64,000 nt of DNA from a virus (Duplodnaviria > Caudoviricetes), in the IMG/VR virus record IMGVR_UViG_3300021400_001341, positions 44,027 to 108,026 of that record; one strand, written 5' to 3'. Numbering within the stretch: position 1 is the first letter of the stretch; the number at the start of each line of letters is the position of its first letter. The translations under genes and the position numbers were made by a program. Positions 21,218-63,164 of the stretch are shown piece after piece. Under the pieces are notes generated by a model, which saw nothing but the letters and a program-made list of their open reading frames with translations, was not told the origin of the DNA and searched no databases.

Positions 21218-21247
21218 TTGACATTTCTATTTTTCTTCCACTATAAT
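21218..21247 (+). promoter_or_regulatory. Consensus sigma-A promoter for integrase
   Basis: TTGACA-N18-TATAAT, followed by RBS AAGGAG and ATG at 21272. Confidence 0.8.
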
Positions 21248-21271
21248 CTCTCTTTAAAGGAGAGTGTTTAT

Positions 21272-22381
21272 ATGTCTGACAAGAAAGGTAAACCTAAAGG
21301 TAGAGGTAACGGTCAGGGTACCGCCATTCTTTCAAAAAATAAGAAATCATGGATTGCCATAGTAACTGTCGGCAAAAAGATTGTTGATGGCAAATTCTAT
21401 ACTGTCAGAAAGAAAAAGAGTGGTTTCCCTACAAAGAAAGCTGCCCTTGCTTACTGTCCTACTCTTTTAGCTGAAGGCCGTATAGACAAACATGCACGTT
21501 ATACGCTTCAAGAGGTTTATGAAATGTGGGAATCATATTATGAACCTCGTGTTGGAACTTCAACAATGGACAACTATAAATACGCTTATAAACATTTTAA
21601 GCCGCTACATTCAATATACATAGACAGTATAGAGCCTGAGAACTTACAGGAATGCATCGATAAGTGTAAGTCCGGAAAACGTACTCATCAGAACATGAAG
21701 GTTACAGCCGGGCTCATCTGGGCATGGGCTGTAGACCACAAGATTTTAGATAGAGACATTACGCGAAACTTATTTATCGGTCATTTAGAATCCACAAAAC
21801 GTGAACCGCTTACAGACGAAGAAGTAAAAATGTTTAAGAACGCTATCGGTAAAGAGAAGTACGCTGAGTACATTTACTGCTTGTGTTATCTTGGTTTCCG
21901 TCCAGGTGAACTGTTGGAGCTTAAGAAGGACGCTCTTCATGAAGAAGAAATAGACGGAAAGAAAATCTATTATTTCATCGGTGGCAAGAAGACAGAGGCC
22001 GGACGAAACAGGACGGTCATTATTCCATCTCAGATACTGGATATCGTTCTCCAACGGAAAGAAGTCGAAGGAACAGACTTATTATTTCCACAGTATGTCT
22101 ATTCCAAAAAGAAGCCATATGACTTTATCAGATTTAAACAGATGACTGATGAATATCTTCGAGATTCCATATTTAAGAAGATGGCTAAGAAGTTCGGTAT
22201 TGATTCCAAGAAGGTTCCGTATTGTGCAAGACATACTTATGCTGATAAACTTGAGAAAGCTGCCGGCAAAGATAAAGACAAAGCGAAGCTCATCGGGCAC
22301 TCGGACTTTTCATTCACTCAGCACAAATATCAGTCTACAGATATCGCCGACTTAAATACGGTCGTAGAGAGCATAGAATGA
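21272..22381 (+). CDS. int: Tyrosine integrase
   Basis: GFRPGEL (R), KTEAG (K), YCARHTY, LIGH, catalytic Y in HKY; N-terminal arm-binding region. Confidence 0.92.
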   Translation: MSDKKGKPKGRGNGQGTAILSKNKKSWIAIVTVGKKIVDGKFYTVRKKKSGFPTKKAALAYCPTLLAEGRIDKHARYTLQEVYEMWESYYEPRVGTSTMDNYKYAYKHFKPLHSIYIDSIEPENLQECIDKCKSGKRTHQNMKVTAGLIWAWAVDHKILDRDITRNLFIGHLESTKREPLTDEEVKMFKNAIGKEKYAEYIYCLCYLGFRPGELLELKKDALHEEEIDGKKIYYFIGGKKTEAGRNRTVIIPSQILDIVLQRKEVEGTDLLFPQYVYSKKKPYDFIRFKQMTDEYLRDSIFKKMAKKFGIDSKKVPYCARHTYADKLEKAAGKDKDKAKLIGHSDFSFTQHKYQSTDIADLNTVVESIE

Positions 22382-23423: not shown

Positions 23424-23497
23424 CTGGGGTGGCTGGACTCGAACCAGCGCGTCCGGGAGTCAAAGTCCCGTGCCTTAACCAGCTTGGCTACACCCCA
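23424..23497 (-). tRNA. tRNA-Gln (UUG)
   Basis: Complete cloverleaf, loop CT-TTG-AC. Confidence 0.92.
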
Positions 23498-23620
23498 TAG
23501 TGGCAACTGGATAGCTAATCCTTCTTCTGACCGACAGTTGCCATGCCGTCATTCGTTTCAGTTTTTGTCATTCTTTGTGTGGTGAAACGAATCAAGAACC
23601 ACACATCAGTCGCGACAACG

Positions 23621-23693
23621 TACTTCCGGCTGGATTCGAACCAGCGACCGACGGCTTATAAGGCCGCAACTCTCACCTCTGAGTTACGGAAGC
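23621..23693 (-). tRNA. tRNA-Ile (UAU)
   Basis: Complete cloverleaf, loop CT-TAT-AA. Confidence 0.88.
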
Positions 23694-23856
23694 AAAAGGA
23701 AGGCAGAAGTTCTTTTATCATGAACTTGGAACCTGTTTTTATTCATGGTTTTATTATGCGCACCCAAGTCCTTTTTATCCGCCCGACTAAGGAAGCGGGC
23801 CAATCTGTGCATTTGGTGAACTTCTCTAAGGGGCGTCCCCCTATGTGAACCCTCCA

Positions 23857-23943
23857 TGGTGCCATTGGCGGGATTTGAACCCGCAATCCCTTTCGGGCGT
23901 CAGATTTTAAGTCTGAATTGTATACCGGTTCCAACACAATGGC
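23857..23943 (-). tRNA. tRNA-Leu (UAA)
   Basis: Cloverleaf with long variable arm, loop CT-TAA-AA, encoded CCA. Confidence 0.92.
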
Positions 23944-43003: not shown

Positions 43004-45823
43004 TTATGTCCTTCCGAAGCGTAATGCCAAGGAAATAATACGTTCTGACTCCTCCTCTTTTTTCTTGCGGTATCTTCTGCTGTCGTAGTCTTTCTTGATG
43101 CTTTCTCTGTGTTTCTTTTGACATGATTCACATCTGCATTGACGCGAATTCAGTCGTTCAAATGTTTTTCCACAGTCTTCACACTCAAAGAAACCATGAG
43201 AAGTCTTAATACATACATGATTGGTGTCCCACGATGGAACTCTTGACTTGCAGTCAGGGCAGATATCACAAGATATTAAATTGCGTTTTATATTCTGAAG
43301 AGCTATATCTCCATACACTCTCCAGAACATTTGTTTATGTGCGGCTTTATCAACATTTTCTCCGGCAAATAAATACTTCACAATATATGGATATGATTTT
43401 TCGAGCGGGCCAAACGCCTCTCTCATTTCCTGCGCAATCATTTCAGCAAGAAGTTCGTAACCGGCTATCTGTTCGCGTTCATTGATGTATGGAAGATCTT
43501 GAGATTCAATTACGTTTGAAATATTTATATTATCGAATTCGCAGAACAGTTGCGGAATTTCTGGTCTTATTACAACGCATGGTTCTGATATCAACATCTT
43601 CCAATTGAACTTTAAAATACCGGCATAATTCAAATCTATATTTCCAATATCTGTAAACGATGCGCAAATTCTATTCATTGTCGATGCGTTTGGCTTTGCA
43701 TAGTTTTTCTTAGGTTTTCCAGGTTCTTGTTTTCTTCCGTTTCTGCTAAATTGAAAAAAGTATGGTTGTCTTCCATGCTTTCCGCCGACGGCTTTGCTAA
43801 TTCTTTTTGCAACTTCTGGATATTTTTCATATGTATTAATCAATCCTGATTTCGCGCCGTCTATGACTTGATTGTTGTAGTATGTAAGCCAAGCTGCAGC
43901 CAGCCTGTCTGGCTTATCTCTATTCCACAATCTTGTCAGCATGTTGGATATTTCTCCAATTCCTGAACAGTCATGTGCTCTCTTAAGCCCATGAAACTGT
44001 CCTTCCTTTGAAATAACTTCAGGAGCAGCTTTATTTGCGTCATAAAATAGAGGGACAACATCGTATTTATTTATGTTTCTTTCCGCTATCTCTACTATTA
44101 GGGGATCTACGACAACATTTAGCTGGTCTCCATCGTTATCAAACTGAAGAATTCTTGAAATTAAATCATGACATGATGTATAAACACCATTTGTATAGAA
44201 CCATTCATATACATTGTTATCATGACATATATTTCGCACTGCATGCTCCATATATAAGTGAGGAGAACGCAGCACATCGGCTTTATCCTGTCTGCGGAAT
44301 ATCAAACATGCAATTTCGCCGTTTTTTAGCAAGCCTTGGGGATGTTCCTGCTTGAGGAACCAGTGCTCGCATGCTGCATACATGTCCGGTATTGCAAACA
44401 ATCTTTTGTTGTTTGTTTTTATTTTTCCTGATTTAGCGTCATACAACATTCGTTTTCGAATGTCTTTGAGCTGATTTCTGGTATACGCTTCTCTTAACAA
44501 CTCTGGATATAAAGCAAGAGCCGCCTTATAAGGCGACTCCGAAAGCTCGTTTGCGTGAAGCGTTCGCAACATTGCGTCTTTGTTTTTTGCTAAATTGCTT
44601 ATTCGATCATGCTCTCTGTGCGTAAACCTGTTTATTTCATCGTCAGTCATATCTTCCAGTGTTTGCAGAATCTGATAGTTTGTATATGTTTCTTCAATGT
44701 CTTCTTCTTCATATTGTGTTTTACAGAACCTTGCTCCACACTTTTTAAAGTTGTCTTTATATTCCTTCCATGTCTCATAGTATTTCCACATTTTAAACTG
44801 ACTTGTTGTAAATACAATCTGGATATTTTCTTTTTCAAGATCGTGCTCTAAACCCCAAGCGTCAGTTAAGACAGGCAGAATGTTATGAAATTTACAAAAC
44901 CGCATATAGTCGAATGAAGCAAGAAGTCCTTTAAACCATGGGCCACGAATCATGAAATTACTTCTTGATACGGCCGGAAGCATCATACCGCAGCCATCTG
45001 TATGATCAATCACAACAGTTCTTATATCTGTTTCACAGCTATAGTCAGATTTGATATACATCATTCGGTCTGTAACTTCACCTTCAAATTCAGGTATTAC
45101 AATACATCGATCTATATCAAAATCCGTCCATTCGTCTGAGGCTGAACTTGATAGCGCTACATACGCAAGATATTTGTTTACGTTCGCACCAGACTTTTCG
45201 TTAATTTTATCCCATGATAATCCGCATTCCAGTCTTTCATGAATCTTGTTCCACATATCATCAGACATAAATACACATTTATCTCTTCTGAGTTGCCCGC
45301 TGGACGCAGTAAAACATCTGTAGTGTTTATTCGATACCGTACCGTCAGGATTTAAAATCGGAAAATAAAAGCCATCAAGAACAAGCTGCTGTAGCACATC
45401 TGCAGACTTCCATTTAATCACGATTTTATCAAATGTATAATCAAGATGCGATAATCCCATTGCTCTTGATAGCTCTGATGAAAATTCTGTTATTTTCTTT
45501 GAAAACTTTAATGTTTTCCACGTTGCTCCTTCGGGAAATGGTTCGCTGTCTTTTTTATTGTATAAAATACTTTTCAGTCGTACTGTTCTTGGTTTACCGC
45601 TATGGAGTTTGACGAGTGCAACCAGCTTGTCGACGGCATCTTTCTTTTGTTTTTTTAACCAAGGAACTTTTTCGTTTGCAGGATCTTTATCCGCAAGTCG
45701 GTTAAGTTCATTCTTTGCTTCTACGATTTTCATATACAGATCATATTCCTGATCTGTAAACAAATCATAGTTAGTCAGCGACACCAGTCTGATTTGATTT
45801 TTCAGATAGCTCTTATCTGACAT
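43004..45823 (-). CDS. YonO-like single-subunit RNA polymerase (cellular RdRP superfamily)
   Basis: ASSGQLR, HTDGCG, IRGPWFKG, RSPHL, QFDNDGD, VIDGAKSG. Confidence 0.85.
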   Translation of the reverse strand: MSDKSYLKNQIRLVSLTNYDLFTDQEYDLYMKIVEAKNELNRLADKDPANEKVPWLKKQKKDAVDKLVALVKLHSGKPRTVRLKSILYNKKDSEPFPEGATWKTLKFSKKITEFSSELSRAMGLSHLDYTFDKIVIKWKSADVLQQLVLDGFYFPILNPDGTVSNKHYRCFTASSGQLRRDKCVFMSDDMWNKIHERLECGLSWDKINEKSGANVNKYLAYVALSSSASDEWTDFDIDRCIVIPEFEGEVTDRMMYIKSDYSCETDIRTVVIDHTDGCGMMLPAVSRSNFMIRGPWFKGLLASFDYMRFCKFHNILPVLTDAWGLEHDLEKENIQIVFTTSQFKMWKYYETWKEYKDNFKKCGARFCKTQYEEEDIEETYTNYQILQTLEDMTDDEINRFTHREHDRISNLAKNKDAMLRTLHANELSESPYKAALALYPELLREAYTRNQLKDIRKRMLYDAKSGKIKTNNKRLFAIPDMYAACEHWFLKQEHPQGLLKNGEIACLIFRRQDKADVLRSPHLYMEHAVRNICHDNNVYEWFYTNGVYTSCHDLISRILQFDNDGDQLNVVVDPLIVEIAERNINKYDVVPLFYDANKAAPEVISKEGQFHGLKRAHDCSGIGEISNMLTRLWNRDKPDRLAAAWLTYYNNQVIDGAKSGLINTYEKYPEVAKRISKAVGGKHGRQPYFFQFSRNGRKQEPGKPKKNYAKPNASTMNRICASFTDIGNIDLNYAGILKFNWKMLISEPCVVIRPEIPQLFCEFDNINISNVIESQDLPYINEREQIAGYELLAEMIAQEMREAFGPLEKSYPYIVKYLFAGENVDKAAHKQMFWRVYGDIALQNIKRNLISCDICPDCKSRVPSWDTNHVCIKTSHGFFECEDCGKTFERLNSRQCRCESCQKKHRESIKKDYDSRRYRKKKEEESERIISLALRFGRT

Positions 45824-45921: not shown

Positions 45922-45937
45922 ATGTTTTATCAAATAT

Positions 45938-45974
45938 AAAAAAATACGGGCACCGCTGTCTGGCGGCACCCGCA
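45938..45974 (-). terminator. Intrinsic terminator closing the Ubl-RT-ncRNA operon
   Basis: CGGGTGCCGC/GCGGTGCCCG stem plus U tract. Confidence 0.8.
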
Positions 45975-45981
45975 TAGTTCC

Positions 45982-46292
45982 TCTGTATCGCCGCAATCTA
46001 AATACGAAGTATTTAAGAAACGGAGCTTGCGATCCTTGAGTTCCTGAAATTGATTTCAGGAACGAAATGATAAAAGCTCCGTTTCTATCAGCGGATGCTG
46101 GACGGTGGCGACGTTGACGTCGCACACGGTCCGAGCAGTAGCGTAGCGAATGCGGGTTTAAGGCGCCTGTTCTGGGTTTCAACCCATGAACGTGGCGCCT
46201 ATGCCTGCAGAGCGTTAGCATAACCATATCATTATTCTTTCGATGACAGCAAAAGAGTTCTATATAGAACACCTCATTGCTTTAGATACAGA
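45982..46292 (-). ncRNA. Retron msr-msd-like ncRNA #3 (directly downstream of RT)
   Basis: Interrupted IR 45982-45997/46276-46292; G 46275 opposite G 45998; triloop hairpin 46236-46256; hairpins 46016-46086, 46096-46137 and 46161-46200. Confidence 0.8.
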
Positions 46293-47432
46293 TTAGATTT
46301 TCCCAGAAATATAAGCTTTCATCATTGTTTTGACGTCAACGCCCCATTTCATATTTGCTTTGTCGACAACCATTTTGAAATAGTCTGGCTCAATTTGCAT
46401 ATACCAGTTCATTTCACCATGAAGGTGCTGAACATCTCCGAGCTCCCAATATTTCTTGTTCTTTGTATCGAGAATAAACGAACATAATGCCGCCTTAAAA
46501 TATTTCTTTGCACGATATCCTACAGTGATATCAAAATTCCCATTTAGCATCATGCCAAGCATCCAGTTCTGGCCTTTGAACGAGCCGAAATGCGTTTTCT
46601 CGTCTTTGATTGTATACGGCGCATCAAACTCTTTAAATGTATCAATCATGAATTTGACAACATTCTTATATGGAAATCTTTCCTCTGCAGAAATATGAGT
46701 ATCGTCGGCATATCTTGTGTAAACCATTTTCCGTTTTGCAAATTCGTTTGCCAGCTTAAAATCAATAGGAATAAAGATCATATTCGTAAGAGTCGGACTT
46801 AATGGAGATCCTTGTGGCAATGCTCCGTTAAGGAACCCTAAAGAAAGAGCTTTCTTCAGTTCTTCTTTTCCGTCTTTGTCTTTAATTATTTCAGACAACG
46901 GAAATACCATTGACAGCATTTTCATAGTAAAATCAAGAGTTGTCGATGGAAAGAATCCTGACAGATCGGTTTTCAGATACCACTGAGACTTTGCTCTTAC
47001 GTGTTTCTTAGCAACGTCTTGTACGCATCTGCCAGGGATGTATGCATACGCAGATGTATGATATAAAACGCCGCATGTATCAGTTAGAATTGCCGATAAT
47101 CTGGACATAGCGTGTTTTAATTCATCGCATGGCGCATCTATCCGTCTGAATCCACCAGTCGCCTTAGGAATATAGAATGTTGTGTACATTGAGGATCTTT
47201 CTTTTTCGAATAAATGTTTACAATCCTCATTGAACCGTTTAAACTCGTGTATCATTTGAGATACGTTTATCTTATTCATAATATCGTAAGGAATAAACGC
47301 CATTTGTTTGGTTATAGTCGCAGAAGAATCAGATTCAACATTTAATTGATTTGGATTTACGGTTTCAAATAATACGTCTTCCCATTTCAGTTGTTTTGGT
47401 TTTCTATGTTGTTTTACAGTTACATAAATCAT
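46293..47432 (-). CDS. Retron-type reverse transcriptase
   Basis: YTTFYIPKATGGFRRIDAP, AYAY...VAKKH (region X-like), KTDLSGFFPS, LPQGSPLSP, YTRYADD, MLG (VTG-like). Confidence 0.9.
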   Translation of the reverse strand: MIYVTVKQHRKPKQLKWEDVLFETVNPNQLNVESDSSATITKQMAFIPYDIMNKINVSQMIHEFKRFNEDCKHLFEKERSSMYTTFYIPKATGGFRRIDAPCDELKHAMSRLSAILTDTCGVLYHTSAYAYIPGRCVQDVAKKHVRAKSQWYLKTDLSGFFPSTTLDFTMKMLSMVFPLSEIIKDKDGKEELKKALSLGFLNGALPQGSPLSPTLTNMIFIPIDFKLANEFAKRKMVYTRYADDTHISAEERFPYKNVVKFMIDTFKEFDAPYTIKDEKTHFGSFKGQNWMLGMMLNGNFDITVGYRAKKYFKAALCSFILDTKNKKYWELGDVQHLHGEMNWYMQIEPDYFKMVVDKANMKWGVDVKTMMKAYISGKI

Positions 47433-47445
47433 TATAATCTTCCTC

Positions 47446-47780
47446 GCGTAATCTAAAAATAATTGAAGGCGTTTAAGCTTGCAGGGACCCAGTCTATTTA
47501 TATTCGAGTTTAAGAGTATATTTATTGAAGTATAATGAATGTTAGTGTAAGTTTCACGACTTGTACGAGATTTGGTCTATAAATATAGTACTTCTTTTGG
47601 AACTTGATTTTATTAATTTTCTTGTTTTGATGTGAAAACGCGTTAAGTTCCAGCTTTACCCGAGTTAATAGATCCAGGGAACAGCAGCCGGCGCCTACAG
47701 CCAGCGATTATTCGCTGAGCAAGGCTATACAGCTCATTACATAAACTGCTTGATAGATAACTATCAGAACGACATTACGC
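47446..47780 (-). ncRNA. Retron msr-msd-like ncRNA #4 (between E1 and RT)
   Basis: 7-bp IR 47446-47452/47774-47780; G 47773 opposite G 47453; hairpin UGAUAG/CUAUCA; 8-bp GUA-triloop hairpin 47730-47748. Confidence 0.68.
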
Positions 47781-47781
47781 A

Positions 47782-48468
47782 TTAAATTTCTTCGAGCATA
47801 AAATTAAAGGCATCCATAATCATTGCCTGTTTTAATTCATGCTTTTTGACAAAGTTAATAAAGTTACATACTCCAACGTTGCACACCATGCGAACGGTCG
47901 GAGCAACACAAAGACTTACCCTGCAAGCCGACATCGGAACAGCTTTTTGAGCTTCTTCGTGTGTGAAATCCATAGTATTTAACAAGGCTTTCTTATGAGA
48001 CATATCTGACCAGTCAGCAGCATAATGCTGAGCATCTGTTAAACCTGTTCTAAAATCAAACATAGCTTTTATTGAATCGTTGAATTTATTTTCAGTAACG
48101 ATCTTTCTTCGCAGTTCAATATTGTCTACACACAGAAACACATACCCATATAGTTTTTCTCCTTGCCATCCTTCGCCAAATAGCTCAAGACATTCAGTAA
48201 GGTCTTTACGGTCTTCTTCTGGGACAATGCGGATCAGATTGTTAGCTACACATTCAACTTTAGGTTTATACAGATCATCACCTGTAAACATCTGATTGAC
48301 CAGATTCCTGTCTTCTACGACGTCAAAGTCGTATAAAGAAATATTTTTCAGGCCAAACCGAATCAGCAGTTCAGCCACAGTAGATCCTACAGAACCGCAC
48401 CCAATAATATGGATGCGGTCTGTAAATTCATCAGGGTTAAAAAAATCAAAAGATTTGCTTAAGTTCAA
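47782..48468 (-). CDS. ThiF/E1-like adenylyltransferase
   Basis: IIGCGSVGS, YDFDVVE..NL.NQ, CVDN, DFR; candidate catalytic Cys in PMSAC. Confidence 0.9.
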   Translation of the reverse strand: MNLSKSFDFFNPDEFTDRIHIIGCGSVGSTVAELLIRFGLKNISLYDFDVVEDRNLVNQMFTGDDLYKPKVECVANNLIRIVPEEDRKDLTECLELFGEGWQGEKLYGYVFLCVDNIELRRKIVTENKFNDSIKAMFDFRTGLTDAQHYAADWSDMSHKKALLNTMDFTHEEAQKAVPMSACRVSLCVAPTVRMVCNVGVCNFINFVKKHELKQAMIMDAFNFMLEEI

Positions 48469-48471
48469 TTG

Positions 48472-49317
48472 TTAATCCCACCCTTCATGTCCAAAACCGT
48501 CACACCAGTACCACGCTTTACCTTCTGGCTTTTCTTCTTCTTCCTTTTTTTTATCAGCTTTCTTGTCTTTTTGGCCAGCAAAATCTTCAAATGTTTTGAC
48601 TTTGCTTTCGCCATAATATCCTGAATAACCGTAATATGAGGTTTGATTACCTCCTGAATAAGTCATGCTTGTAACTTTATCTTTCAGACTGTTAATAAAT
48701 TCTGTGATAGATCCGAACTCATCATCTTCTACAATAACTTCAATGTCATTTTTATCATAGAAAAGGTTATTATCCAGATCATATAGGAACGAGTTGATAT
48801 CAAGTGATTTATTCCATATCTGAAATAGATAAAAGCCTTTTCCACCCATATTTTTTACTGTAGAAGCCTGATTCTCCAGATCTACAGAAGACGGGCTTGT
48901 CGACATGTTTACATGAGAATGAGCCTGAAAATGCAGGAACTCTGCCTGCTCATCACTTAAAGTTTCATAGAATTCAATCATGTCGTCATCATCAGTTACA
49001 ACGCGACCACCAGATACTTTCTGGTTACAGACGATGATGTCGTATACTTGAAACTTTTTTGCGTCCAGCCTACGAATCAAACCATACCATCCAATCTCTG
49101 AAGAATAGTTCTTCACCATCTCCAGACACCGCAGATATGCCTGCGGAGTAAACTGAATGATCATCTTTTCTTTAGCTTTTACAGAAAAGCTCTGTTCATA
49201 TGTAAACTTTGATTCATTGATATTAAACTCATAATCATCTAAAGCTTTAATAAACTCTTTTACCATTCCATTAAGCAGAGTTTCTTTAGCTTGCTTACTT
49301 AGTGTTATCGGTTTCAT
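48472..49317 (-). CDS. JAB/MPN+ metallo-isopeptidase
   Basis: EIGW ... HSHVNMSTSPSSVD (E-HxH-x7-S-x2-D). Confidence 0.85.
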   Translation of the reverse strand: MKPITLSKQAKETLLNGMVKEFIKALDDYEFNINESKFTYEQSFSVKAKEKMIIQFTPQAYLRCLEMVKNYSSEIGWYGLIRRLDAKKFQVYDIIVCNQKVSGGRVVTDDDDMIEFYETLSDEQAEFLHFQAHSHVNMSTSPSSVDLENQASTVKNMGGKGFYLFQIWNKSLDINSFLYDLDNNLFYDKNDIEVIVEDDEFGSITEFINSLKDKVTSMTYSGGNQTSYYGYSGYYGESKVKTFEDFAGQKDKKADKKKEEEEKPEGKAWYWCDGFGHEGWD

Positions 49318-49343
49318 ATAATTCTCCTTTTAGAACGGCATGA

Positions 49344-50792
49344 TTATTCCTGATCGTTCATGTTCTGCTTAGACAGCCACAAAAGCGCTTCTTCCGGTGT
49401 CATTGCAACGCCTTCATTGTTCTGGATAATCTTATTCTTTGAGGACAAAACTTCCTGAAGAAACGGCCTGAACGTGTACTCAGTTTCATCAATGTTCACA
49501 GATCCAATAGCCGCGATTGAACATTCGATTGCAGACATAATATCCGCTCTGCGTAAGCATTGAGAGATTTGCTCTCTGTTTCGTCCTGGACATCCATGAA
49601 TCTTGAAGTGCGGATTTGTAATATAGTTCTTCAACGACGGATTGTCTTCTGCGATCATCTGACCGCGCTGAGCGATCATATCGCACAGAGTAATCTTCAA
49701 TTCAATATAGCCTTTCATTCTGATATACAGCAAAGGCCTGCTATTGAAGATGTTATCCAACAGAAGCTTTCTTTTCGACTTGTCTCTGAATATGCTGTCT
49801 TCTGGTAATCTATAGCTGTCATAGATATTATATCTGCGAACAGCGTTATTCCACTTATTCAGATCGAAGTTTGTCAACAGATTATCCGCACAGAAACACA
49901 GAGTGCCGTCAATATACTGAATATCGTGAATCCTCGGACAACTGGACAGATAGTCAATAGCTTCCTGTTCTTCCTGATTTCGACCGTCGCTGTTGACAAC
50001 TTGAAGTCCTTCAAACTGAACAATAAGTTCGTTATATCTTTCCATCATATGGCGATAATCGCTCATAATGGTGTCAAGCCTATCGTTGACGTTATCGAGC
50101 TCCTGACGGCACCTGTCGATTCTTCCCTGCCTGAAACCCTTGAAACACTGAGTAAGCTCCTGACGAAGCAGATCTGCTTTCATATACTGGAGAACAGCAG
50201 AAGTCTTCTCAATAAAGTTTGTCGTTGTTTTATTTGTAAGACTTTTCAAAATTTCTGTTTCCTCTTTTGTAAGAGGATGAGTTTTGAATAAAGCCGGATA
50301 CAACAAAGGAATAAACGAGATTGATAAATGATAAAGCGCATATGAAGTGGAGTTCACCACCAAAAATGCTGCATTGTTTTCTGGATTAATAAACACGAGA
50401 TACGCAGAGTTATTAAGCTGTTGAGCTATAAAATTTTCAACTGAAATAAGCTCTTTCAATCCTATGTTTTTAGCGTGATCTCTTATTGCATTCAGATTAT
50501 TTGCACTAAGATTGACAAGCAAATAATAGAACGCAGGAATATTGTTGACGACTTCTTCGCTCGACTCTGAACGAACTCTGTTCCAGTCGTCAATACTGTT
50601 CAGTACGTCCTGTTCATTGGACGCATACAGATAAGCGCCCGTTATACCGTTATAGTTGTTTACTCTTGGTTTAATAAGTGCAGTAGCAAGACTAATGAGA
50701 GAAAAGTCAGGATCTTGCGCAACTCTCATTAAAGAATTTACATATGTTGTTGTCAGTGGAGCAATCGGATTAGAAATAGTTTGATTAAACAT
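49344..50792 (-). CDS. Coiled-coil protein with putative prokaryotic E2-like C-terminal domain
   Basis: NPHFKIHGCPG (His then Cys, as in E2 active sites); operon context. Confidence 0.5.
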   Translation of the reverse strand: MFNQTISNPIAPLTTTYVNSLMRVAQDPDFSLISLATALIKPRVNNYNGITGAYLYASNEQDVLNSIDDWNRVRSESSEEVVNNIPAFYYLLVNLSANNLNAIRDHAKNIGLKELISVENFIAQQLNNSAYLVFINPENNAAFLVVNSTSYALYHLSISFIPLLYPALFKTHPLTKEETEILKSLTNKTTTNFIEKTSAVLQYMKADLLRQELTQCFKGFRQGRIDRCRQELDNVNDRLDTIMSDYRHMMERYNELIVQFEGLQVVNSDGRNQEEQEAIDYLSSCPRIHDIQYIDGTLCFCADNLLTNFDLNKWNNAVRRYNIYDSYRLPEDSIFRDKSKRKLLLDNIFNSRPLLYIRMKGYIELKITLCDMIAQRGQMIAEDNPSLKNYITNPHFKIHGCPGRNREQISQCLRRADIMSAIECSIAAIGSVNIDETEYTFRPFLQEVLSSKNKIIQNNEGVAMTPEEALLWLSKQNMNDQE

Positions 50793-50855
50793 CTTATAAT
50801 CTCCTTCGAAAAAATAGGGGGAGGGATCACAGTCCTCTCCCCCGTCGGGTGGAGA

Positions 50856-51461
50856 TTACATCAGCGTAATAGCTTCACGAATCTCCTGTTCCTTGTTGTT
50901 TGCAGCTTCAATCTTCTCAGGCACTTTGCCTTCCAGTTCGTTCAGGCGAAGCAGAGCGGTACCCAGCTTGTCAGTCACAGCCTGAACCTTATCTTCTACG
51001 GCAGGATCAATTACGGTAGTAATAACAGCATATCCGTCATGATCAGCACGAGTGGAGAACACAGCGCCATTGTTGTTCAGCGACCCCATGTTCTCGTCAA
51101 TGGCAACCAGGAAAATGGGCTCATTGTCCTCGTTGTACAGGCCAAAGTCAGGTTCGAACTTCAGAACTTTCTTCCAGTCATCCAGCTTCACACCAGACTT
51201 GATAATGCACGCATCACCAGTCAGAATGATCTTTGCGGCATTGTCCATCTTCACGATAGAAGACATACGGCAGGTCTCTCCGACACCCAGTTCACGGAGG
51301 GTCTTGTTCAGGTCGCCAACGCGCAGCGGCACAGAGTCGATAGTGTTCGTGCAGGAGTCGTAATTGACGTCATTCTCTTCATAGATTTCACGAAGAGTCT
51401 TAGCCTCGCTGGCGATAACGGTTTTACGTCCTGCGTTAGTGATGAGGGTGATCTTTACCAT
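50856..51461 (-). CDS. Ubiquitin-like (beta-grasp) domain (aa 1-75) fused to a second domain
   Basis: Beta-beta-alpha-beta pattern with DLNKTLRELGV (cf. ubiquitin RTLSDYNI), ending ..IVKMDNA; operon with E1/JAB. Confidence 0.6.
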   Translation of the reverse strand: MVKITLITNAGRKTVIASEAKTLREIYEENDVNYDSCTNTIDSVPLRVGDLNKTLRELGVGETCRMSSIVKMDNAAKIILTGDACIIKSGVKLDDWKKVLKFEPDFGLYNEDNEPIFLVAIDENMGSLNNNGAVFSTRADHDGYAVITTVIDPAVEDKVQAVTDKLGTALLRLNELEGKVPEKIEAANNKEQEIREAITLM

Positions 51462-51607: not shown

Positions 51608-52114
51608 TTAAATTACCTGAATTCCGATAACAGACAGAAAGTCATTTCCTACAGCATTTTCCTTTTCTGCTGCAAGAGCTTCGGCTTCCTGTTGTTCCAT
51701 AATCTTCTTTTCCAGTTGTTCAAAGACAAGCCTGTCGTCTCCGTCTGTATCTGCGTATCCGTCTTCATCGTCTTCATCGTCTTCTTCATAGCAATAAACG
51801 TCATATCCGCAGATAAATACGCTTTCTCCGTTTCTTGCATGTTCAAGCGAGTAGCCGCAGTCTTCTTTTTCAGATTCTGCCCTATTCTCAGCCCAGTATC
51901 TAAGTTCATTCATATATCCATCGTAGTTTAATTCTTTTAAAACATCTGATGGGTTAAACTCGTATCCACAAACTTCTACTCTATCGCTATCGTCAAGATA
52001 TTCATCAAAACCTTCGGTGTCGTCTGTCCAATAATCTGTGGAAATACATGTTTCAAGTACATCATCAACATCATCATATCTTTGATCTGGGTCGTTGTTT
52101 ATCAGATAGTACAT
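51608..52114 (-). CDS. Highly acidic hypothetical protein
   Basis: RBS AAGGAGG; D/E-rich. Confidence 0.7.
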   Translation of the reverse strand: MYYLINNDPDQRYDDVDDVLETCISTDYWTDDTEGFDEYLDDSDRVEVCGYEFNPSDVLKELNYDGYMNELRYWAENRAESEKEDCGYSLEHARNGESVFICGYDVYCYEEDDEDDEDGYADTDGDDRLVFEQLEKKIMEQQEAEALAAEKENAVGNDFLSVIGIQVI

Positions 52115-52322
52115 AATTCCTCCTTGATAATATCGGAAGCCGCATGCTCCCCATTGCAAACGGCTCCCGTAGTCGAATATTCCGATCCGGAGATATGAAT
52201 CGGAAGGCAATTGTTAAAATAAAATTTGATTCATTTATATATGAAAATATTTAAAAACGATATATAAATTAACCATAGAGGTTTTACCATAGACGTTGTT
52301 TGTTTTTGTTAGATTAGCCAAG

Positions 52323-54087: not shown

Positions 54088-54190
54088 AGCTTCCGCCAGG
54101 ACTCGAACCTGGATTACTGTTGACATGTGTTCCAGTTGTATCCCGCTGTTTCAGAGACCACTCCAAACTTTCCCATTAAGTTACAGAAGC
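54088..54190 (-). ncRNA. tRNA-like RNA with enlarged anticodon/variable region
   Basis: GCTTCTG/CGGAAGC acceptor, ACTT-AATGGGA-AAGT D arm, CCAGG-TTCGAGT-CCTGG T arm. Confidence 0.5.
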
Positions 54191-54324
54191 AAAGCCGATT
54201 CCGTCATATATACATACAGCTATATGCAGTCGTACCTACACATAGTTAAGGAGTTCAATTTATATACCGCCCACTTGCTTTTGCAAGACTGGCCAAGATG
54301 TACGACACTCATCGGCGGTTAGAG

Positions 54325-54395
54325 TCGAAGATGTCAGAGTCGAACTGCTACTCGTCGTCCCAAGCGACGCGTGTTACCGTTACACCACATCCTCG
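54325..54395 (-). tRNA. tRNA-Pro (UGG), imperfect T stem
   Basis: GTGT/ACAC D arm, CGTCG-CTTGGGA-CGACG anticodon arm, TTCGACT loop. Confidence 0.75.
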
Positions 54396-56689: not shown

Positions 56690-57290
56690 TCCTTATTTAT
56701 AGTATTTAAATAAATAAATTATTTTTTAGAATATGAATTTCCAGTCATTAATAGATAAGTTATTCTAGTAGTACGATATAAGTTACTATATGCAGTAATT
56801 GCAATATATTCTCTTCGGTAATTGAATGGGAATACTAATTCCCTCTCAAGATAAAAAGAAATTTATAAACTATATTTTCAGTCATTACAAAATAATCTAA
56901 GTAATAATCTAATAACACACTATCAGTCATGTTTAAGTTTATTATAGAAAAAGAATTTAATTCATATATATTCATATTTAAAAAATGAATTTCCGGTTAT
57001 TATAGAGGATTTAAATAAAAGATTGTTTTCTTATTTTTATGAAAGATATATTTTTAGTTATTATACAGGAAGAAGATATATTTTTAATTGTTAGATGGGA
57101 GGAAGATATTTTTTTAGTTATAATACAGGAGGAAGATATATTTTTAGTTATATAATTCCCTATCAGTAATTCAATTAATCCTGTTAAATAATATAATCAA
57201 TATTTCCATTCATTGTTGAATAATTTATTAGAAAGAGAATAATTCTTCTTATATTATATATATTATATATAAATAAGAAATATTTCTTCA
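56690..57290. other. AT-rich non-coding region, candidate replication origin
   Basis: Very AT-rich, no ORFs, contains direct repeats. Confidence 0.5.
57041..57152. repeat. Four 30-bp tandem direct repeats (iteron-like)
   Basis: AAGATATWTTTTTA at 57043, 57073, 57103 and 57133. Confidence 0.85.
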
Positions 57291-60743: not shown

Positions 60744-63164
60744 TTAGTCAGCAGAGAACACTTCGTCATCGTCGTCGAAGTCTTCGAACTCTTCATCGAA
60801 GTTGTCTTCGGCACGCTCGATGAAGCAGCCGTTCTTCTGCAGGGCTTTAACGGCCCGATCACCAAACACACGCCAGAAGCACTGCTTGGTCACGGTGTCC
60901 ATGCCATCAGTCATCTTCGAAGCGAACATGAGCGTGACAATGGAATCGTAAGCGGCGTCCAGAATGCTGTCATCGCTGACGCGGGTCAGATCGCGATCCG
61001 CATACAGGTTGCGGACGTAGTACACGATCTCCTGCAGAGCTTCATGCTTGCAGGCTTCTTCCCACTCGTCACGATGCATCTTGGCGTCGGCGGTGCTCAT
61101 CAGAGCGTTCCACTCGTCAGAGTGACGGAACGCGATCTGATTGAAGAGCCCGGTATCCTCATAGGTACCAAGCTCCATGTTGAATTTGCCCTTCTTGAAC
61201 AGACCAGGAACCAGCTTACGATCAGCCTTGATCTTCAGCATGTACGGGTCGAAGATCTCATCTTCGATACCGTCGATGGTCAGTTCTTCCGGGACGTTCT
61301 CCTTGACGGCCTTGGAATACATGTCTAGGAAGGAGCCGCTATACTGCACACGAGGAGTGCCCGTGTACTTGCGGATCTCATCCCAATAGGGATCATCTGC
61401 AGGATGCTCTGCATCAGCCTTCGCGTAACGGGCGAACTCAGGCAGCGGAACTGCAGACAGCGCCTTCACGGGTTCAGGCTTATCGATCTTCACAGCCGCG
61501 TGCTTCGCAGCATCGATCAGCACATTACCCGCATAGGTCAGCCAGTCGCAGGTATCACGGTTGTACTGGCTGTTCCACATCTTCGTCATGGTGTCAGCAT
61601 AGATACCGATCTCAGAACCATGAAGAAGATTGGTGATGAAGCTGCAGATCGCAGACTTCGTGATCGCAACCTTCTCTGCCTTACCGACATCCCAGTCAAT
61701 CGGGATATTCTTCAGCTGTTCGAAGGTGCGATTAACCAGATCGAGCAGATACTCGTCCTGGCTGTACCAGACATGGTCTCCATCATAATCCGCACGGATC
61801 TGAATGGTGGTCATGTCGAAGATATTGATGAACATCGTGGGACCTTCGCAGAAGGGCATATCCATGTTGTTCATCAGGACGACGTGAGCGTTATCCAGAT
61901 GAGGATTCCTTGTCACGTCTACAGGGCCTTCATGCGCTGCGTGGCAGCAGCATTCTCCGGCCTTCAGGAAGCCCTTGATCTCGAGACCGAAGAGGTGCTC
62001 AACGAAGGCAACCATATCCGGAGCCAGGAAAGCGTTGTATCCCAGTTCAGGAATACGACCACCAAGCATGTCCATACGCTTGGAGGCATACTTCTCCTGA
62101 ACGGACTTCCGGGTATGCCGTTCATTCAGGAGAGCCGGATACATCCGGACAGCGAGACGATGCTCACCACGCAGAAGCTTTGCGGCTTCCTGCGGATCGT
62201 GATACTTGAAGACGGTAGCCTTAGCGTGCTGCATGAAATGCAGAGCGTCGTCTTCAGTACCCATCAGGGTCTGACCCTGCTGATAGGGCATACCCTTGAG
62301 GCGGGGCTTGTGCTCACGAACGCACACGCAGATGGTGTGACCCATCTGCTCGAAAGCATCCTGATACTGAGTCCAACTCTGATAGAGCTTAGCTGCTTTG
62401 AAGCAGGACTCTGTGAGGATAACATCGACGTCCGCAAGGCGAACGGTGTTGCCCCAGAAATCTTTGAACTCCGGCTTGATGCCATGTTCGTAGGCGAACG
62501 CGGCAATATCCTTGAAGTTCACTGCCTGCACGAACGCCTTGAGCCACGGGCCACGAAGAGTGCAGGATTCTCCGTTAGTCAGCGTTCTGCGAATGATGCC
62601 AAATCCATCGAAAGCGTTGATCTCGCAGGAACGATCAACGTCATGGGTCACATCGCCGCTGACGAGGTCAACGACGGAGTTAACAGTGACTGAGCCATCC
62701 GGGATGATCGCCACACGGCGGATATCGATAGTTCTGCCGAACACCTCGACGAAAGGCTTGGAAGCAGAACTCAGCAATCCCAAGTACGCCATGTACTTGT
62801 TGATCGCAAGCTTGATGTCTGCAGTCTTGAGGCCGCAAAGGCACCATTTGCCCATGATGGGCAGGAGCTCCTCCCGGAGCCAGAGGGACGTGGCCTTCCT
62901 GATATCGGAAGAGCCGGCCTCGAACGGGAAATACCGATGACCGTTGTGGTCGAAGCCTTGAGCGCACCAATGGGTGAGCTTGCTCTTGGCTTCGGCTTCC
63001 TTGGCTTCAACGTCAGACTTCTTGCCTGACGGAACCTCGGCACAGATCTTGATGATGGCGTCTTCGACGCCGATGGTCTCCAGCTTGCGAGTGAACTCGG
63101 AAGAGAAGACGGCGATCTTCTCATAAGTGTTGCTGGCGACGTTGTACTTTACGATAGTATCCAT
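60744..63164 (-). CDS. Second YonO/RdRP-like RNA polymerase
   Basis: AGSSDIRK, AFDGFG, LRGPWLKA, RNPHL, RADYDGD, LIDAAKH. Confidence 0.82.
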   Translation of the reverse strand: MDTIVKYNVASNTYEKIAVFSSEFTRKLETIGVEDAIIKICAEVPSGKKSDVEAKEAEAKSKLTHWCAQGFDHNGHRYFPFEAGSSDIRKATSLWLREELLPIMGKWCLCGLKTADIKLAINKYMAYLGLLSSASKPFVEVFGRTIDIRRVAIIPDGSVTVNSVVDLVSGDVTHDVDRSCEINAFDGFGIIRRTLTNGESCTLRGPWLKAFVQAVNFKDIAAFAYEHGIKPEFKDFWGNTVRLADVDVILTESCFKAAKLYQSWTQYQDAFEQMGHTICVCVREHKPRLKGMPYQQGQTLMGTEDDALHFMQHAKATVFKYHDPQEAAKLLRGEHRLAVRMYPALLNERHTRKSVQEKYASKRMDMLGGRIPELGYNAFLAPDMVAFVEHLFGLEIKGFLKAGECCCHAAHEGPVDVTRNPHLDNAHVVLMNNMDMPFCEGPTMFINIFDMTTIQIRADYDGDHVWYSQDEYLLDLVNRTFEQLKNIPIDWDVGKAEKVAITKSAICSFITNLLHGSEIGIYADTMTKMWNSQYNRDTCDWLTYAGNVLIDAAKHAAVKIDKPEPVKALSAVPLPEFARYAKADAEHPADDPYWDEIRKYTGTPRVQYSGSFLDMYSKAVKENVPEELTIDGIEDEIFDPYMLKIKADRKLVPGLFKKGKFNMELGTYEDTGLFNQIAFRHSDEWNALMSTADAKMHRDEWEEACKHEALQEIVYYVRNLYADRDLTRVSDDSILDAAYDSIVTLMFASKMTDGMDTVTKQCFWRVFGDRAVKALQKNGCFIERAEDNFDEEFEDFDDDDEVFSAD

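What the first reader, a model, noticed from the sequence alone, without database searches (positions are those of the whole stretch)
46293..51461. Ubiquitin-like conjugation cassette (Ubl, E2-like, JAB, E1) directly upstream of the retron RT
SEEN: contiguous co-oriented genes Ubl-fusion, E2-like (NPHxxxxxC), JAB (HSH..S..D), ThiF/E1, ncRNA#4, RT, ncRNA#3, terminator. ncRNA#4 starts 1 nt after the E1 stop and ends at the RT RBS. One hairpin (50817-50844) lies between Ubl and E2. No classical retron toxin effector is adjacent. KNOWN: bacterial E1/E2/JAB/Ubl systems (CBASS Cap2/Cap3, Bil) conjugate proteins in phage conflicts, and retrons normally pair with an effector. INFERENCE: the conjugation machinery may be the retron's effector or partner (msDNA-gated Ubl ligation, or Ubl tagging of the RT-msDNA complex), used for counter-defence or superinfection exclusion. 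I know of no described retron type with this pairing.
Basis: partly seen in the sequence, partly recalled or inferred. Interest (0 to 1): 0.88.

Follow-up and report, generated by a model that had tools for sequence, protein, structure and literature searches.

The report
Phage retron joined to ubiquitin-like cassette
A 108-kb gut or rumen phage carries one tight operon that joins a ubiquitin-like protein-tagging kit to a retron-type reverse transcriptase flanked by two template RNAs; the block stays intact in every relative examined, and I found no paper that describes the pairing.

Summary
On the minus strand lie:
- a ubiquitin-fold protein fused to a 126-aa C-domain
- a terminator-like attenuator hairpin
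- a 482-aa protein with a UBC/RWD-like C-domain and an invariant NPH-x5-C motif
- a JAMM/JAB peptidase with the exact HxH-x7-S-x2-D motif
- a minimal 228-aa ThiF-type E1
- a retron-type ncRNA
- a retron-like RT
- a second ncRNA of the same family
- an intrinsic terminator

Linkage is absolute in my survey. Across about 35 distinct related loci, every contig with enough room has the Ubl (34/34), the E1 (30/30) and the RT (25/25 in the second survey, and all earlier loci). This holds down to 36% RT identity and 21% identity for the E2-like protein, and with differing flanks.

Both ncRNAs have the retron layout: covarying a1/a2 repeats that abut a conserved G.

In split-gene relatives the Ubl ends at or just after a conserved D-N-A. 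This suggests the JAB cleaves fused forms at NA|A.

A complex prediction for RT with the E2-like protein gave only weak support.

The biological role (exclusion, defence or counter-defence) is untested.

The block fits no described retron type and is not a Bil or CBASS member. Earlier agents of this scan noted the same pairing on other genomes.

The parts
51237..51461 (-). Ubl domain (residues 1-75 of the 201-aa protein), ending in the conserved K-x-D-N-A motif
   Evidence: Beta-grasp fold. D73 is invariant and N74 and A75 nearly so. Stand-alone Ubl genes in relatives end at ...DNA*...DNAA*...ANA* or ...DNALAA*.
50856..51236 (-). C-domain (residues 76-201) fused to the Ubl: acidic, a beta-rich core plus a C-terminal helical hairpin, function unknown. 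In some relatives it is a separate gene placed before the Ubl gene.
   Evidence: Model and secondary structure. Separate 128-139-aa genes in L004, L012, L013, L022 and L023 and in two BFVD siphoviruses. No lead from the ESM Atlas.
50808..50843 (-). G+C-rich hairpin followed by a U run, between the Ubl gene and the E2-like gene. Probably a partial terminator (attenuator) that gives an excess of Ubl transcript.
   Evidence: Fold -30 kcal/mol, z = -3.7. The attenuator role is inferred.
49344..50792 (-). 482-aa E2-like protein in three parts: an N-terminal alpha/beta domain (1-190, MoaB/MogA-like), a long helix (191-266), and a UBC/RWD-like domain (271-435 and beyond) with invariant N393-P-H395-x5-C401
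   Evidence: Model pLDDT 90. VIA hits. Invariant residues. In the ESM Atlas, 17 of 30 nearest clusters are of the set that carries Prok-E2_D in a minority of members. The family has 1839 representatives at 50% identity.
48472..49317 (-). JAMM/JAB metallopeptidase (domain about residues 1-210) with a low-complexity tail that ends in an aromatic/acidic motif
   Evidence: Exact E...HxH-x7-S-x2-D motif, invariant. PADLOC JAB 1e-4. Pfam Prok-JAB 7e-4, below its cut-off. The family profile hits only Rpn11/PSMD14.
47782..48468 (-). Minimal ThiF/MoeB-type E1 (228 aa): a single adenylation domain with invariant GxGxxG, D47/D49, K70, D115 and Cys182. It has N58-Q59 where ThiF/MoeB have R-Q.
   Evidence: Pfam ThiF 2.5e-20. 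PDB relatives are ThiF-type proteins, MoeB, MccB, UBA5 and Cap2. Invariant residues. The comparison with the R-Q of ThiF/MoeB is from my own knowledge.
47445..47781 (-). Retron-type ncRNA A: a1 at 47781-47774, conserved G at 47773, two covarying hairpins, an A+T-rich body, and a2 at 47452-47445 preceded by TTTAG
   Evidence: a1/a2 pairs in 11 of 11 loci with differing sequences. Covarying P2 hairpin. Covariance model hits.
46293..47432 (-). Retron-like reverse transcriptase (379 aa) with a YADD box and a conserved 75-aa N-terminal extension
   Evidence: Pfam RVT_1. PADLOC RT_II-A 152 bits. NCBIfam retron_St85_RT 164 bits, below its 235-bit cut-off. The best PDB relatives are retron RTs: Ec83, Kva2 and Ec78.
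45982..46292 (-). Retron-type ncRNA B, a paralogue of A: a1 at 46292-46285 plus 46280-46276, G at 46275, a long hairpin before a2, and a2 at 45997-45993 plus 45989-45982
   Evidence: Fold z = -9.8. The window's own copy was a training row of the covariance model (36 bits); the independent support is that the model also finds a copy directly after the RT in L007, L009, L012 (two) and L013, none of which were used to build it. a1/a2 pairs.
45934..45975 (-). Intrinsic terminator that closes the operon
   Evidence: 13-bp stem with 8 G-C pairs, followed by a T run

Best explanation
This is one composite, co-transcribed conflict module of a temperate SPbeta-like phage: a retron-like unit (the RT plus two msr-msd-type ncRNAs) whose accessory partner is a four-gene ubiquitin-like conjugation cascade instead of a toxin.

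Proposed working, with shown and inferred steps marked:

1. The Ubl is made in excess, because an attenuator hairpin sits after its gene (hairpin shown; role inferred). In this phage it is made as a fusion. The JAMM peptidase cuts it after the conserved D-N-A. This frees a Ubl with a small C-terminal residue and a separate C-domain. The cut is inferred from relatives in which the two halves are separate genes and the Ubl ends at or within three residues of that motif.
2. The minimal ThiF-type E1 adenylates the Ubl C-terminus, possibly through Cys182. It passes the Ubl to Cys401 of the E2-like protein, which conjugates it to target proteins (inferred from the families involved).
3. The RT uses the conserved G after a1 to prime cDNA synthesis on ncRNA A and ncRNA B (inferred from the retron layout). 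The resulting RT-msDNA particle binds the E2-like protein, probably through its extra N-terminal domain and helix. It thereby gates or aims Ubl transfer, as RT-msDNA complexes gate the effectors of known retrons (inferred; the complex prediction gave weak support only).
4. The likely use is conflict with other phages or with host immunity. I lean slightly towards exclusion of competing phages by tagging their proteins, as Bil systems do. Counter-defence is nearly as likely.
For: **Identity of the parts:**

**One transcription unit.** All parts are co-oriented. The gaps are 26 nt between the E2-like gene and the JAB gene, and 3 nt between the JAB and E1 genes. ncRNA A starts 1 nt after the E1 stop codon. 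A single strong terminator follows ncRNA B.

**Strict co-inheritance.**
- All 11 loci of the first surveys keep the order Ubl / E2-like / JAB / E1 / gap / RT. RT identity falls to 36% and E2-like identity to 21%.
- Seven look-ups that started from divergent E2-like or RT proteins all gave the same block.
- In 47 further loci, wherever the contig had room: Ubl 34/34, E1 30/30, RT 25/25.

**The block is not just backbone synteny.**
- Its flanks differ: the YonO-like RNA polymerase is downstream in some loci and unrelated genes in others.
- 58 of 60 phages with a 32-40% identical YonO-like polymerase lack the block next to it.

**Retron layout.**
- The a1/a2 helices are 5-14 bp, differ in sequence between loci, and always abut a conserved G.
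- The hairpins covary.
- A covariance model finds a second copy right after the RT in five other loci that were not used to build it.

**Other points.**
- The gene order Ubl-E2-DUB-E1 equals that of BilABCD and CEHH/6C operons (10.1101/2023.09.26.559546, read).
- Complex prediction for the E2-like protein with the RT: ipSAE 0.50 (runs 0.55, 0.49, 0.50), best of 3 controls 0.00. The tool's verdict is weak support. That mark was reached by 58 of 80 solved complexes and 2 of 110 mismatched pairs. At 0.60 or under it was reached by only 7 of those 80 and by both mismatches. The runs agree in at least 90% of contacts and the partner's pLDDT is at least 80.
Against: - No experiment or expression data bears on any step.
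- The E2 assignment rests on weak structural matches (Z 5.8-6.5, below the level at which the tool says a match stands out). The rest is topology, invariant residues and gene position. No sequence model of any E2 family matches.
- The RT lacks the retron 'VTG' signature. It has xLG at that place. It also scores below NCBIfam's retron cut-off.
- The E1 has Asn where ThiF/MoeB have a conserved Arg, so its activity is not assured.
- All loci come from one broad group of uncultured gut or rumen phages. Part of the linkage could therefore be shared descent.
- The complex score is in the range where the tool says passes are more often wrong than right unless the pairing was already likely.
- Nothing shows whether the module serves defence, exclusion, counter-defence or replication.
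Confidence: 0.6

Rival explanations
1. These are two independent modules that are only neighbours. One is a Bil-like Ubl cassette. The other is an 'orphan' retron that has no effector or an effector encoded elsewhere. A conserved early region of one phage lineage keeps them side by side, and they do not work together.
For: All loci come from related uncultured phages, and other genes nearby are also syntenic in many of them: the acidic 200-aa protein, the YonO-like polymerase and the exonuclease. Orphan retrons without a linked effector are known (Mestre et al. 2020, PMC7736814). The only physical evidence for coupling is weak.
Against: - The five genes and the ncRNA stay together where the flanks have changed, and at 36-43% RT identity.
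- No locus with room lacks either half.
- The ncRNA starts 1 nt after the E1 stop codon, and the only strong terminator lies after ncRNA B.
- YonO-polymerase phages outside the subclade lack both halves together, not one of them.
Confidence: 0.17
2. The cDNA (msDNA) or the RT itself is the substrate. The E1 and the E2-like protein attach the Ubl C-terminus to the RT-msDNA particle or to a hydroxyl of the nucleic acid. The product would be a protein-DNA conjugate used as a decoy, primer or signal.
For: - The E2-like protein has an extra MoaB/MogA-like alpha/beta domain, a fold that binds nucleotides and pterins in its known members (Z 5-6.5, about 24 rows).
- It is weakly predicted to contact the RT.
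- Two or three template RNAs per RT suggest that the DNA products matter in their own right.
- Ubiquitin transfer to nucleic-acid hydroxyls by some eukaryotic ligases has been reported. This is from my own knowledge and I did not check it in the library.
Against: No direct evidence. The fold match of the N-domain is weak, and no nucleotide-binding residues were identified. Known bacterial cascades (Bil, CBASS Cap2) modify protein lysines (10.1101/2023.09.26.559546).
Confidence: 0.1
3. The 482-aa protein is not an E2 at all. It could be a Cys-His peptidase or a non-catalytic RWD-like adaptor. In that case the ThiF enzyme, JAB and Ubl would form a sulfur-carrier-like or MccB-like C-terminal modification pathway, rather than a conjugation cascade.
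For: No E2 sequence model matches. The structural Z-scores are under 8. The E1 is of the minimal ThiF/MoeB/MccB type. The N-domain resembles MoaB/MogA of the molybdenum-cofactor pathway.
Against: - The UBC topology is complete: alpha1, four strands, the motif loop, then three helices. The invariant His and Cys sit where E2s have HPN and the catalytic Cys.
- The gene sits in the E2 slot of the Bil gene order.
- A JAMM peptidase together with Ubl fusions and split forms fits a conjugation and processing system.
- No sulfur-transfer partners (MoaE or ThiG-like proteins, or a rhodanese) were seen among the operon's proteins.
Confidence: 0.1

Closest known systems
Retrons (RT plus msr-msd ncRNA plus accessory effector; 13 types in Mestre et al. 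2020, PMC7736814). The nearest RT models are type II-A / St85 and type I-A / Ec83.
   Same: The RT's nearest relatives are retron RTs. The ncRNA lies directly upstream of the RT, is flanked by a1/a2 inverted repeats, and has a conserved G right after a1. Accessory genes are tightly linked and co-transcribed.
   Different: - The accessory part is a four-gene Ubl cascade. No such domain appears in the 13 types: ThiF, JAB and ubiquitin have 0 mentions in that paper.
- There are two or three ncRNA copies per RT, one of them downstream of the RT.
- RT motif 7 has xLG instead of VTG, and the RT scores below the curated retron cut-off.
- The RT has a 75-aa N-terminal extension.
- The module is carried by large phages rather than by bacterial defence islands.
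BilABCD anti-phage operons, Type I and Type II / CEHH-6C (Hör et al., 10.1101/2023.09.04.556158; Chambers et al., 10.1101/2023.09.26.559546)
   Same: The gene order is the same: Ubl, E2, JAB deubiquitinase, E1. The Ubl is a beta-grasp; the Bil Ubl 8tyz_B is among the structural hits at Z 8.9. A JAMM peptidase probably pre-processes a Ubl that carries a C-terminal extension.
   Different: - The E1 is a 228-aa single adenylation domain. It lacks the inactive adenylation domain, the CYS domain and the four-Cys zinc site (compared).
- The E2-like protein is 482 aa with two extra parts. It has NPH-x5-C rather than the CEHH motif.
- The Ubl ends in Asn-Ala (Gly in one relative) instead of a universally conserved Gly.
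- No Bil model matched in PADLOC.
- It is obligately linked to an RT and ncRNAs.
Type II CBASS Cap2 (E1-E2 fusion) and Cap3 (JAB)
   Same: The E1 adenylation core gives its best PADLOC hits to CBASS E1-E2 models, best E 2e-16, and it hits Cap2 chains in the PDB. A JAB partner is present.
   Different: There is no CD-NTase and no E1-E2 fusion. A dedicated Ubl is present. The matches cover only about 70 residues of the nucleotide-binding core.
PRTRC cassette (ParB-related, ThiF-related) and Prok-E2_D / E1 / JAB triads of mobile elements. This lead came from earlier notes of this scan.
   Same: It combines a ThiF-type E1, a JAB and an E2-like protein on a mobile element. The ESM Atlas neighbours of the E2-like C-domain include clusters in which a minority of members carry Prok-E2_D.
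   Different: PRTRC_ThiF scores 20.5 bits against a cut-off of 144.75. No PRTRC model matches the other proteins. Pfam Prok-E2_D finds nothing in this genome. PRTRC has no RT.

Membership tests
Retron | The RT's nearest relatives are retron RTs | tested here: met
   The PADLOC top hits are all retron RT models, RT_II-A at 6.4e-45. In the PDB the best are retron Ec83, Kva2 and Ec78 RTs, 3e-19 to 5e-15, ahead of group II intron RTs.
Retron | The RT passes a curated retron RT family model | tested here: not met
   NCBIfam retron_St85_RT scores 163.8 bits against a cut-off of 235. The other retron models score far below their cut-offs.
Retron | 'VTG' signature in RT motif 7 (present in most retrons; PMC8632793) | tested here: not met
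   The equivalent position reads M-L-G in the window (QNWMLGMMLN) and xLG across the family, with L292 and G293 invariant.
Retron | An ncRNA next to the RT, flanked by inverted repeats a1/a2 | tested here: met
   a1/a2 helices of 5-14 bp in 12 of 12 ncRNAs examined. Their sequences differ, and a2 sits at a fixed place after a T/C-A-G motif and before the RT ribosome-binding site.
Retron | A conserved branching G immediately 3' of a1 | tested here: met
   The G is invariant in the alignments (G11 in A6, G13 in A8) and abuts a1 in every copy. That it actually branches cannot be tested here.
Retron | Production of msDNA (branched RNA-DNA) | not testable with these tools
This needs a nucleic-acid preparation from an expressing host.
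BilABCD (Type I/II) | Operon order Ubl-E2-JAB-E1 | tested here: met
   compared with the order stated in 10.1101/2023.09.26.559546
BilABCD (Type I/II) | A Ubl with a universally conserved C-terminal Gly, optionally followed by a few residues | tested here: not met
   The beta-grasp fold is met. The conserved end is D-N-A, and Gly replaces Ala only in L003.
BilABCD (Type I/II) | An E1 with inactive and active adenylation domains, a mobile CYS domain and a Cys4 zinc site | tested here: not met
   The E1 is 228 aa with a single adenylation domain. Only one Cys (C182) is invariant.
BilABCD (Type I/II) | An E2 (UBC fold) with a catalytic Cys and an adjacent conserved His (CEHH in Type II) | tested here: inconclusive
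   UBC/RWD-like hits at Z 5.8-6.5 and an invariant C401. The motif is NPH-x5-C and no sequence model matches.
BilABCD (Type I/II) | A JAMM/JAB deubiquitinase | tested here: met
   Exact JAMM motif, and the family profile hits Rpn11
Type II CBASS (Cap2/Cap3) | A CD-NTase with a fused E1-E2 Cap2 | tested here: not met
   PADLOC found no CD-NTase among the ten proteins scanned. The E1 and the E2-like protein are separate genes.
PRTRC cassette | The proteins pass the NCBIfam PRTRC models | tested here: not met
   PRTRC_ThiF scores 20.5 bits against a cut-off of 144.75. The other proteins have no hit.
Diversity-generating retroelement | A template repeat and variable repeat pair near the RT | tested here: not met
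   No direct repeat of 35 nt or more links 45.9-47.8 kb to any other place in the 64-kb window. The other 44 kb of the genome were not scanned. The RT's best hits are retron RTs.

The most novel reading that the evidence does not exclude
The reverse-transcribed DNA is not just a sensor but part of the chemistry. The RT-msDNA particle would be the scaffold or the acceptor for Ubl transfer. The E2-like protein's extra N-terminal domain would read the msDNA, so that this phage module makes DNA-guided, or DNA-linked, ubiquitin-like conjugates. That would be a new way to aim a protein tag with a nucleic acid.
Probability: 0.12. Interest if true: 0.95.

Novelty: new variant of a known kind. Interest (0 to 1): 0.8.

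Why it matters
Retrons are understood as RT-msDNA complexes that hold a toxin in check. Bacterial Ubl cascades (Bil, CBASS Cap2/Cap3) are understood as stand-alone taggers. Here the two are welded into one operon.

The operon is widespread. The E2-like family has 1839 representatives at 50% identity, and the RT family has more than 1000 clusters at 90% identity.

If the halves work together, this is a retron type whose output is a protein modification rather than cell killing. It would also be a Ubl system whose activity is set by a reverse-transcribed DNA.

It also offers a very small E1 (228 aa), an E2-like enzyme of an unrecognised family, and a Ubl that ends in Ala. These are useful for tracing how ubiquitin-type cascades evolved, and possibly as compact tagging tools.

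The module is carried by abundant gut and rumen phages of Clostridia, so it probably shapes phage-phage or phage-host conflict in those communities.

Tried and rejected
- **Close phage relatives.** A DNA search of the INPHARED phage collection found only one short match, so no annotated close relative exists. A protein search found one unannotated fecal phage with the same block.
- **RNA families.** Rfam has no family for either ncRNA.
- **Whole-model fold search.** Foldseek of the 482-aa model against the PDB gave nothing clear.
- **Sequence models for the E2-like protein.** The family profile against PDB sequences gave nothing. Pfam on all 36 members gave only noise. Pfam Prok-E2_D in the genome gave nothing.
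- **C-domain of the Ubl fusion.** The ESM Atlas gave no usable lead (best score 0.77). Fold searches were filled by the Ubl domain, so the C-domain's fold was barely tested.
- **DGR reading.** Rejected: no template/variable repeat pair in the window, and the RT's relatives are retron RTs.
- **Group II intron reading.** Rejected: the RT scores 72 bits against a 300-bit cut-off, and the ncRNA has the a1/a2-G layout.
- **CBASS, Bil and PRTRC membership.** Rejected; see the membership tests.
- **Part of the phage backbone.** The idea that the block belongs to the YonO-polymerase phage backbone was rejected, because 58 of 60 more distant polymerase loci lack it.
- **Other ncRNA copies.** The covariance model found none elsewhere in the window.
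- **RNAalifold on the raw alignment.** It recovered only one hairpin, because indels put the first hairpin out of register. The a1/a2 pairs were therefore tabulated by script.

Full report
**Setting.** The window is bases 44027-108026 of a 108,026-bp IMG/VR virus record with direct terminal repeats. It also encodes:
- tail-fibre proteins, an integrase, a DNA polymerase, a primase-helicase and exonucleases
- two paralogues of a YonO-like single-subunit RNA polymerase
- four tRNAs

This fits a temperate, SPbeta-like phage. Related contigs sit in metagenome bins named Ruminococcus and Acutalibacteraceae. One relative comes from human faeces.

**The parts.** The finding's coordinates hold a run of co-oriented minus-strand genes.

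*Ubl fusion (201 aa).*
- It was modelled at pLDDT 86.
- Residues 1-75 are a ubiquitin/SUMO-like beta-grasp. Foldseek gives probability 1.0 and TM about 0.6 against ubiquitin and SUMO.
- All 50 top VIA rows are Ubls at Z 8.1-9.8. They include the Bil Ubl 8tyz_B at Z 8.9 (rmsd 2.4, 74 residues aligned).
- The remaining 126 residues form an acidic domain of unknown kind.

*E2-like protein (482 aa).* It was modelled at pLDDT 90 and has three parts.
- Residues 1-190 form an alpha/beta domain. About two dozen VIA rows liken it to MoaB, MogA, Cnx1G and gephyrin-G (Z 5.0-6.5, 116-131 residues aligned).
- Residues 191-266 form one long helix.
- From residue 271 there is a domain with the order helix, four strands, loop, three helices. 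Leaving aside the rows that match only the long helix (residues 191-266), its best rows are the RWD part of the SEA complex (Z 6.5, rmsd 3.5, 94 aligned), the Knl1 RWD domain (Z 6.5, rmsd 3.3, 90 aligned) and Ubc9 (Z 5.8, rmsd 3.6, 93 aligned).
- These Z values are below the level at which the tool says a match stands out, so the fold call is moderate.
- It is strengthened by invariant N393, H395 and C401, with P394 nearly invariant. They lie in the loop after the fourth strand, where E2 enzymes carry HPN and the catalytic Cys.
- It is also strengthened by the gene's place in the E2 slot of the Bil gene order, and by ESM Atlas neighbours of which 17 of 30 belong to the set that carries Prok-E2_D in a minority of members.
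- No sequence model of any kind matches.

*JAB peptidase (281 aa).* It has E74 and H133-S-H135-x7-S143-x2-D146, all invariant in 12 relatives. A profile of the family hits only Rpn11/PSMD14 deubiquitinases.

*E1 (228 aa).* It is a ThiF-family adenylation domain.
- GxGxxG, D47/D49, K70, D115 and a single Cys (C182) are invariant.
- It has Asn-Gln where ThiF and MoeB have Arg-Gln (the comparison is from my own knowledge).

*RT (379 aa).* It has a YADD box, and its nearest relatives are retron RTs. It scores under NCBIfam's retron cut-off (164 against 235 bits), and motif 7 reads xLG rather than VTG.

**The RNAs.** The 337 nt between the E1 and the RT genes have the retron layout.
- They begin, 1 nt after the E1 stop codon, with T-GCGTAAT followed by a G.
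- They end with ATTACGCG at the RT ribosome-binding site.
- The same layout recurs in all 11 related loci with different sequences: CATGCAAT, ACTCATGAT, TCACAAT, AACTGTAAT, TATCATATAAA and others.
- The helix is always directly followed by the conserved G, and a2 is preceded by T/C-A-G.
- Because the positions of a1 and a2 are fixed by these motifs, chance pairing of 5-14 bp in 12 of 12 copies is not credible.
- Two hairpins after the G covary.

A covariance model of the 5' part finds the upstream element in loci that were not used to build it (L017, L019).
- It also finds a second copy directly after the RT in L007, L009, L012 (two copies) and L013, and an extra upstream copy in L002.
- The window's own downstream copy scores 36 bits, but it was one of the model's training rows.

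The window's downstream copy (45982-46292) has a bipartite 13-bp a1/a2. It has a long hairpin just before a2, as msd regions usually do, and it folds at z = -9.8. An intrinsic terminator follows it. The RT is therefore flanked by two template RNAs, which is unusual for retrons.

**Linkage.**
- *First survey.* RT-seeded searches of IMG/VR and of GTDB genomes, plus one GenBank phage, gave 11 loci. RT identity was 36-60%. All have Ubl / E2-like / JAB / E1 / gap / RT in that order.
- *Look-ups from divergent proteins.* Starting from the most divergent E2-like proteins and from RT homologues gave the same block each time.
- *Second survey.* Searches seeded with the E2-like family returned 47 loci, about 15 of them duplicated between collections. 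Wherever the contig had room, the Ubl was present in 34 of 34, the E1 in 30 of 30 and the RT in 25 of 25.
- *Flanks.* The YonO-like polymerase follows the block in many loci. Radical-SAM genes, small ORFs or other genes follow it in others.
- *Polymerase-anchored survey.* Among 60 phage loci chosen by their YonO-like polymerase, the two with 53-57% identity have the block and the 58 with 32-40% identity lack it.

The block is therefore a unit of its own, not a fixture of the phage backbone. Both families are large: 1839 representatives at 50% identity for the E2-like protein, and at least 1017 clusters at 90% identity for the RT.

**Processing of the Ubl.**
- In 30 distinct relatives the Ubl is fused to the C-domain across a conserved K-x-D-N-A | A junction.
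- In 5 relatives the C-domain is a separate gene placed before the Ubl gene. There the Ubl ends at ...DNA (twice)...DNAA...ANA or ...DNALAA.
- One relative has Gly in place of the Ala.
- This pattern says that a free C-terminus at the small residue after Asn is what the system needs. It also says that fusions and short tails are trimmed, most simply by the JAB. The Bil deubiquitinase does the same for its Ubl.
- The hairpin with a U run after the Ubl gene would give more Ubl message than enzyme message. That role is inferred.

**Coupling of the two halves.** Alignments were supplied for both chains.
- The median score was 0.50 (runs 0.55, 0.49, 0.50) and the best of three controls was 0.00.
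- The tool calls this weak support. The mark was reached by 58 of 80 solved complexes and 2 of 110 mismatched pairs.
- At 0.60 or under, however, it was reached by only 7 of those 80 and by both mismatches.
- The runs agree in at least 90% of contacts, and the partner's pLDDT is at least 80.
- I treat it as a hint only.

**What it most likely is.** It is a retron-like element whose partner is a Bil-like Ubl cascade built from diverged, unannotated families. I propose that the RT-msDNA particle gates or aims the E2-like enzyme. The direction of use remains open.
- For exclusion or defence: the phage has an integrase, and Bil systems tag phage parts.
- For counter-defence: the block lies among early and replication genes. 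In relatives it sits near Lar-like and Macro-domain genes.

**Comparison with what is known.**
- It fails the membership tests for Bil (E1 architecture, Ubl terminus, E2 motif), for CBASS (no CD-NTase, no E1-E2 fusion) and for PRTRC (model scores).
- It meets the structural RNA features of retrons but not the VTG signature or the curated RT cut-off.
- Mestre et al. 2020 do not mention ThiF, JAB or ubiquitin, nor does the 2021 review of prokaryotic RTs.
- Five full-text searches found no paper that describes the pairing.

**Earlier notes of this scan.** The scan recorded the same pairing on at least 16 other genomes, with the same conclusion. Those are unchecked AI notes. They gave me the PRTRC lead, which I tested and rejected.

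**Verdict.** It is a new variant of known kinds and of high interest.

Noticed in passing
window 43004-45823 and 60744-63164 (minus strand): Two paralogues of a YonO-like single-subunit RNA polymerase: phrog_8308 at 8e-182 and 6e-79, and Pfam RdRP at 7e-9 for the first. In relatives L019 and L020 the polymerase is split into 568-aa and 381-aa parts by an HNH endonuclease gene.
   Followed up: partly
window 21098-22381 (plus strand); tRNAs at 23424-23943: An integrase (phrog_1, 1.4e-38) lies next to a cluster of three tRNA genes (Gln, Ile, Leu). The phage is therefore probably temperate.
   Followed up: no
window 54088-54190 (minus strand): Rfam reports a 103-nt tRNA match (38 bits, above the gathering score) that ARAGORN does not call. 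It lies next to tRNA-Pro at 54324-54395. It may be a tRNA with an intron or insertion.
   Followed up: no
window 52323, 58512, 59459, 60017, 60699: Five copies of a 38-nt motif with the hairpin core CAGGGCTTTAGCCCGG lie in intergenic places of the early region.
   Followed up: no
window 56982-57149: Four 30-nt-spaced repeats lie in the most A+T-rich stretch of the region (GC 0.31), where the GC skew changes sign. This is a candidate iteron-type replication origin.
   Followed up: no
window 8902-10059: Fourteen tandem 66-nt (22-aa) repeats lie inside the 480-aa ORF 8752-10194. That ORF follows an 1800-aa tail-fibre-like ORF.
   Followed up: no
L014 7912-9106; L013 7366-7502: In the Ruminococcus-bin contig the RT reading frame is interrupted by about 1.2 kb between residues 305 and 307. 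In L013 the RT carries an insertion and is 456 aa long. I did not examine what the inserts are.
   Followed up: no
window 48472-48690 (C-terminal tail of the JAB protein): After the JAMM domain comes a variable low-complexity tail. In most relatives it ends in a short aromatic/acidic motif, for example WYWCDGFGHEGWD, FYWKDE..EGEW or DPFGYYGY. This may be a docking peptide.
   Followed up: partly
window 51608-52210 (minus strand): A very acidic 200-aa protein directly upstream of the operon is conserved at that place in several relatives (L007, L025, L026, L040, L042). It may be a DNA mimic or a further member of the module.
   Followed up: partly
L012 6426-6670; L023 6779-6997: Some relatives have an extra small ORF inside the block: 81 aa between the E1 gene and the ncRNA in L012, and 72 aa between the JAB and E1 genes in L023.
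   Followed up: no
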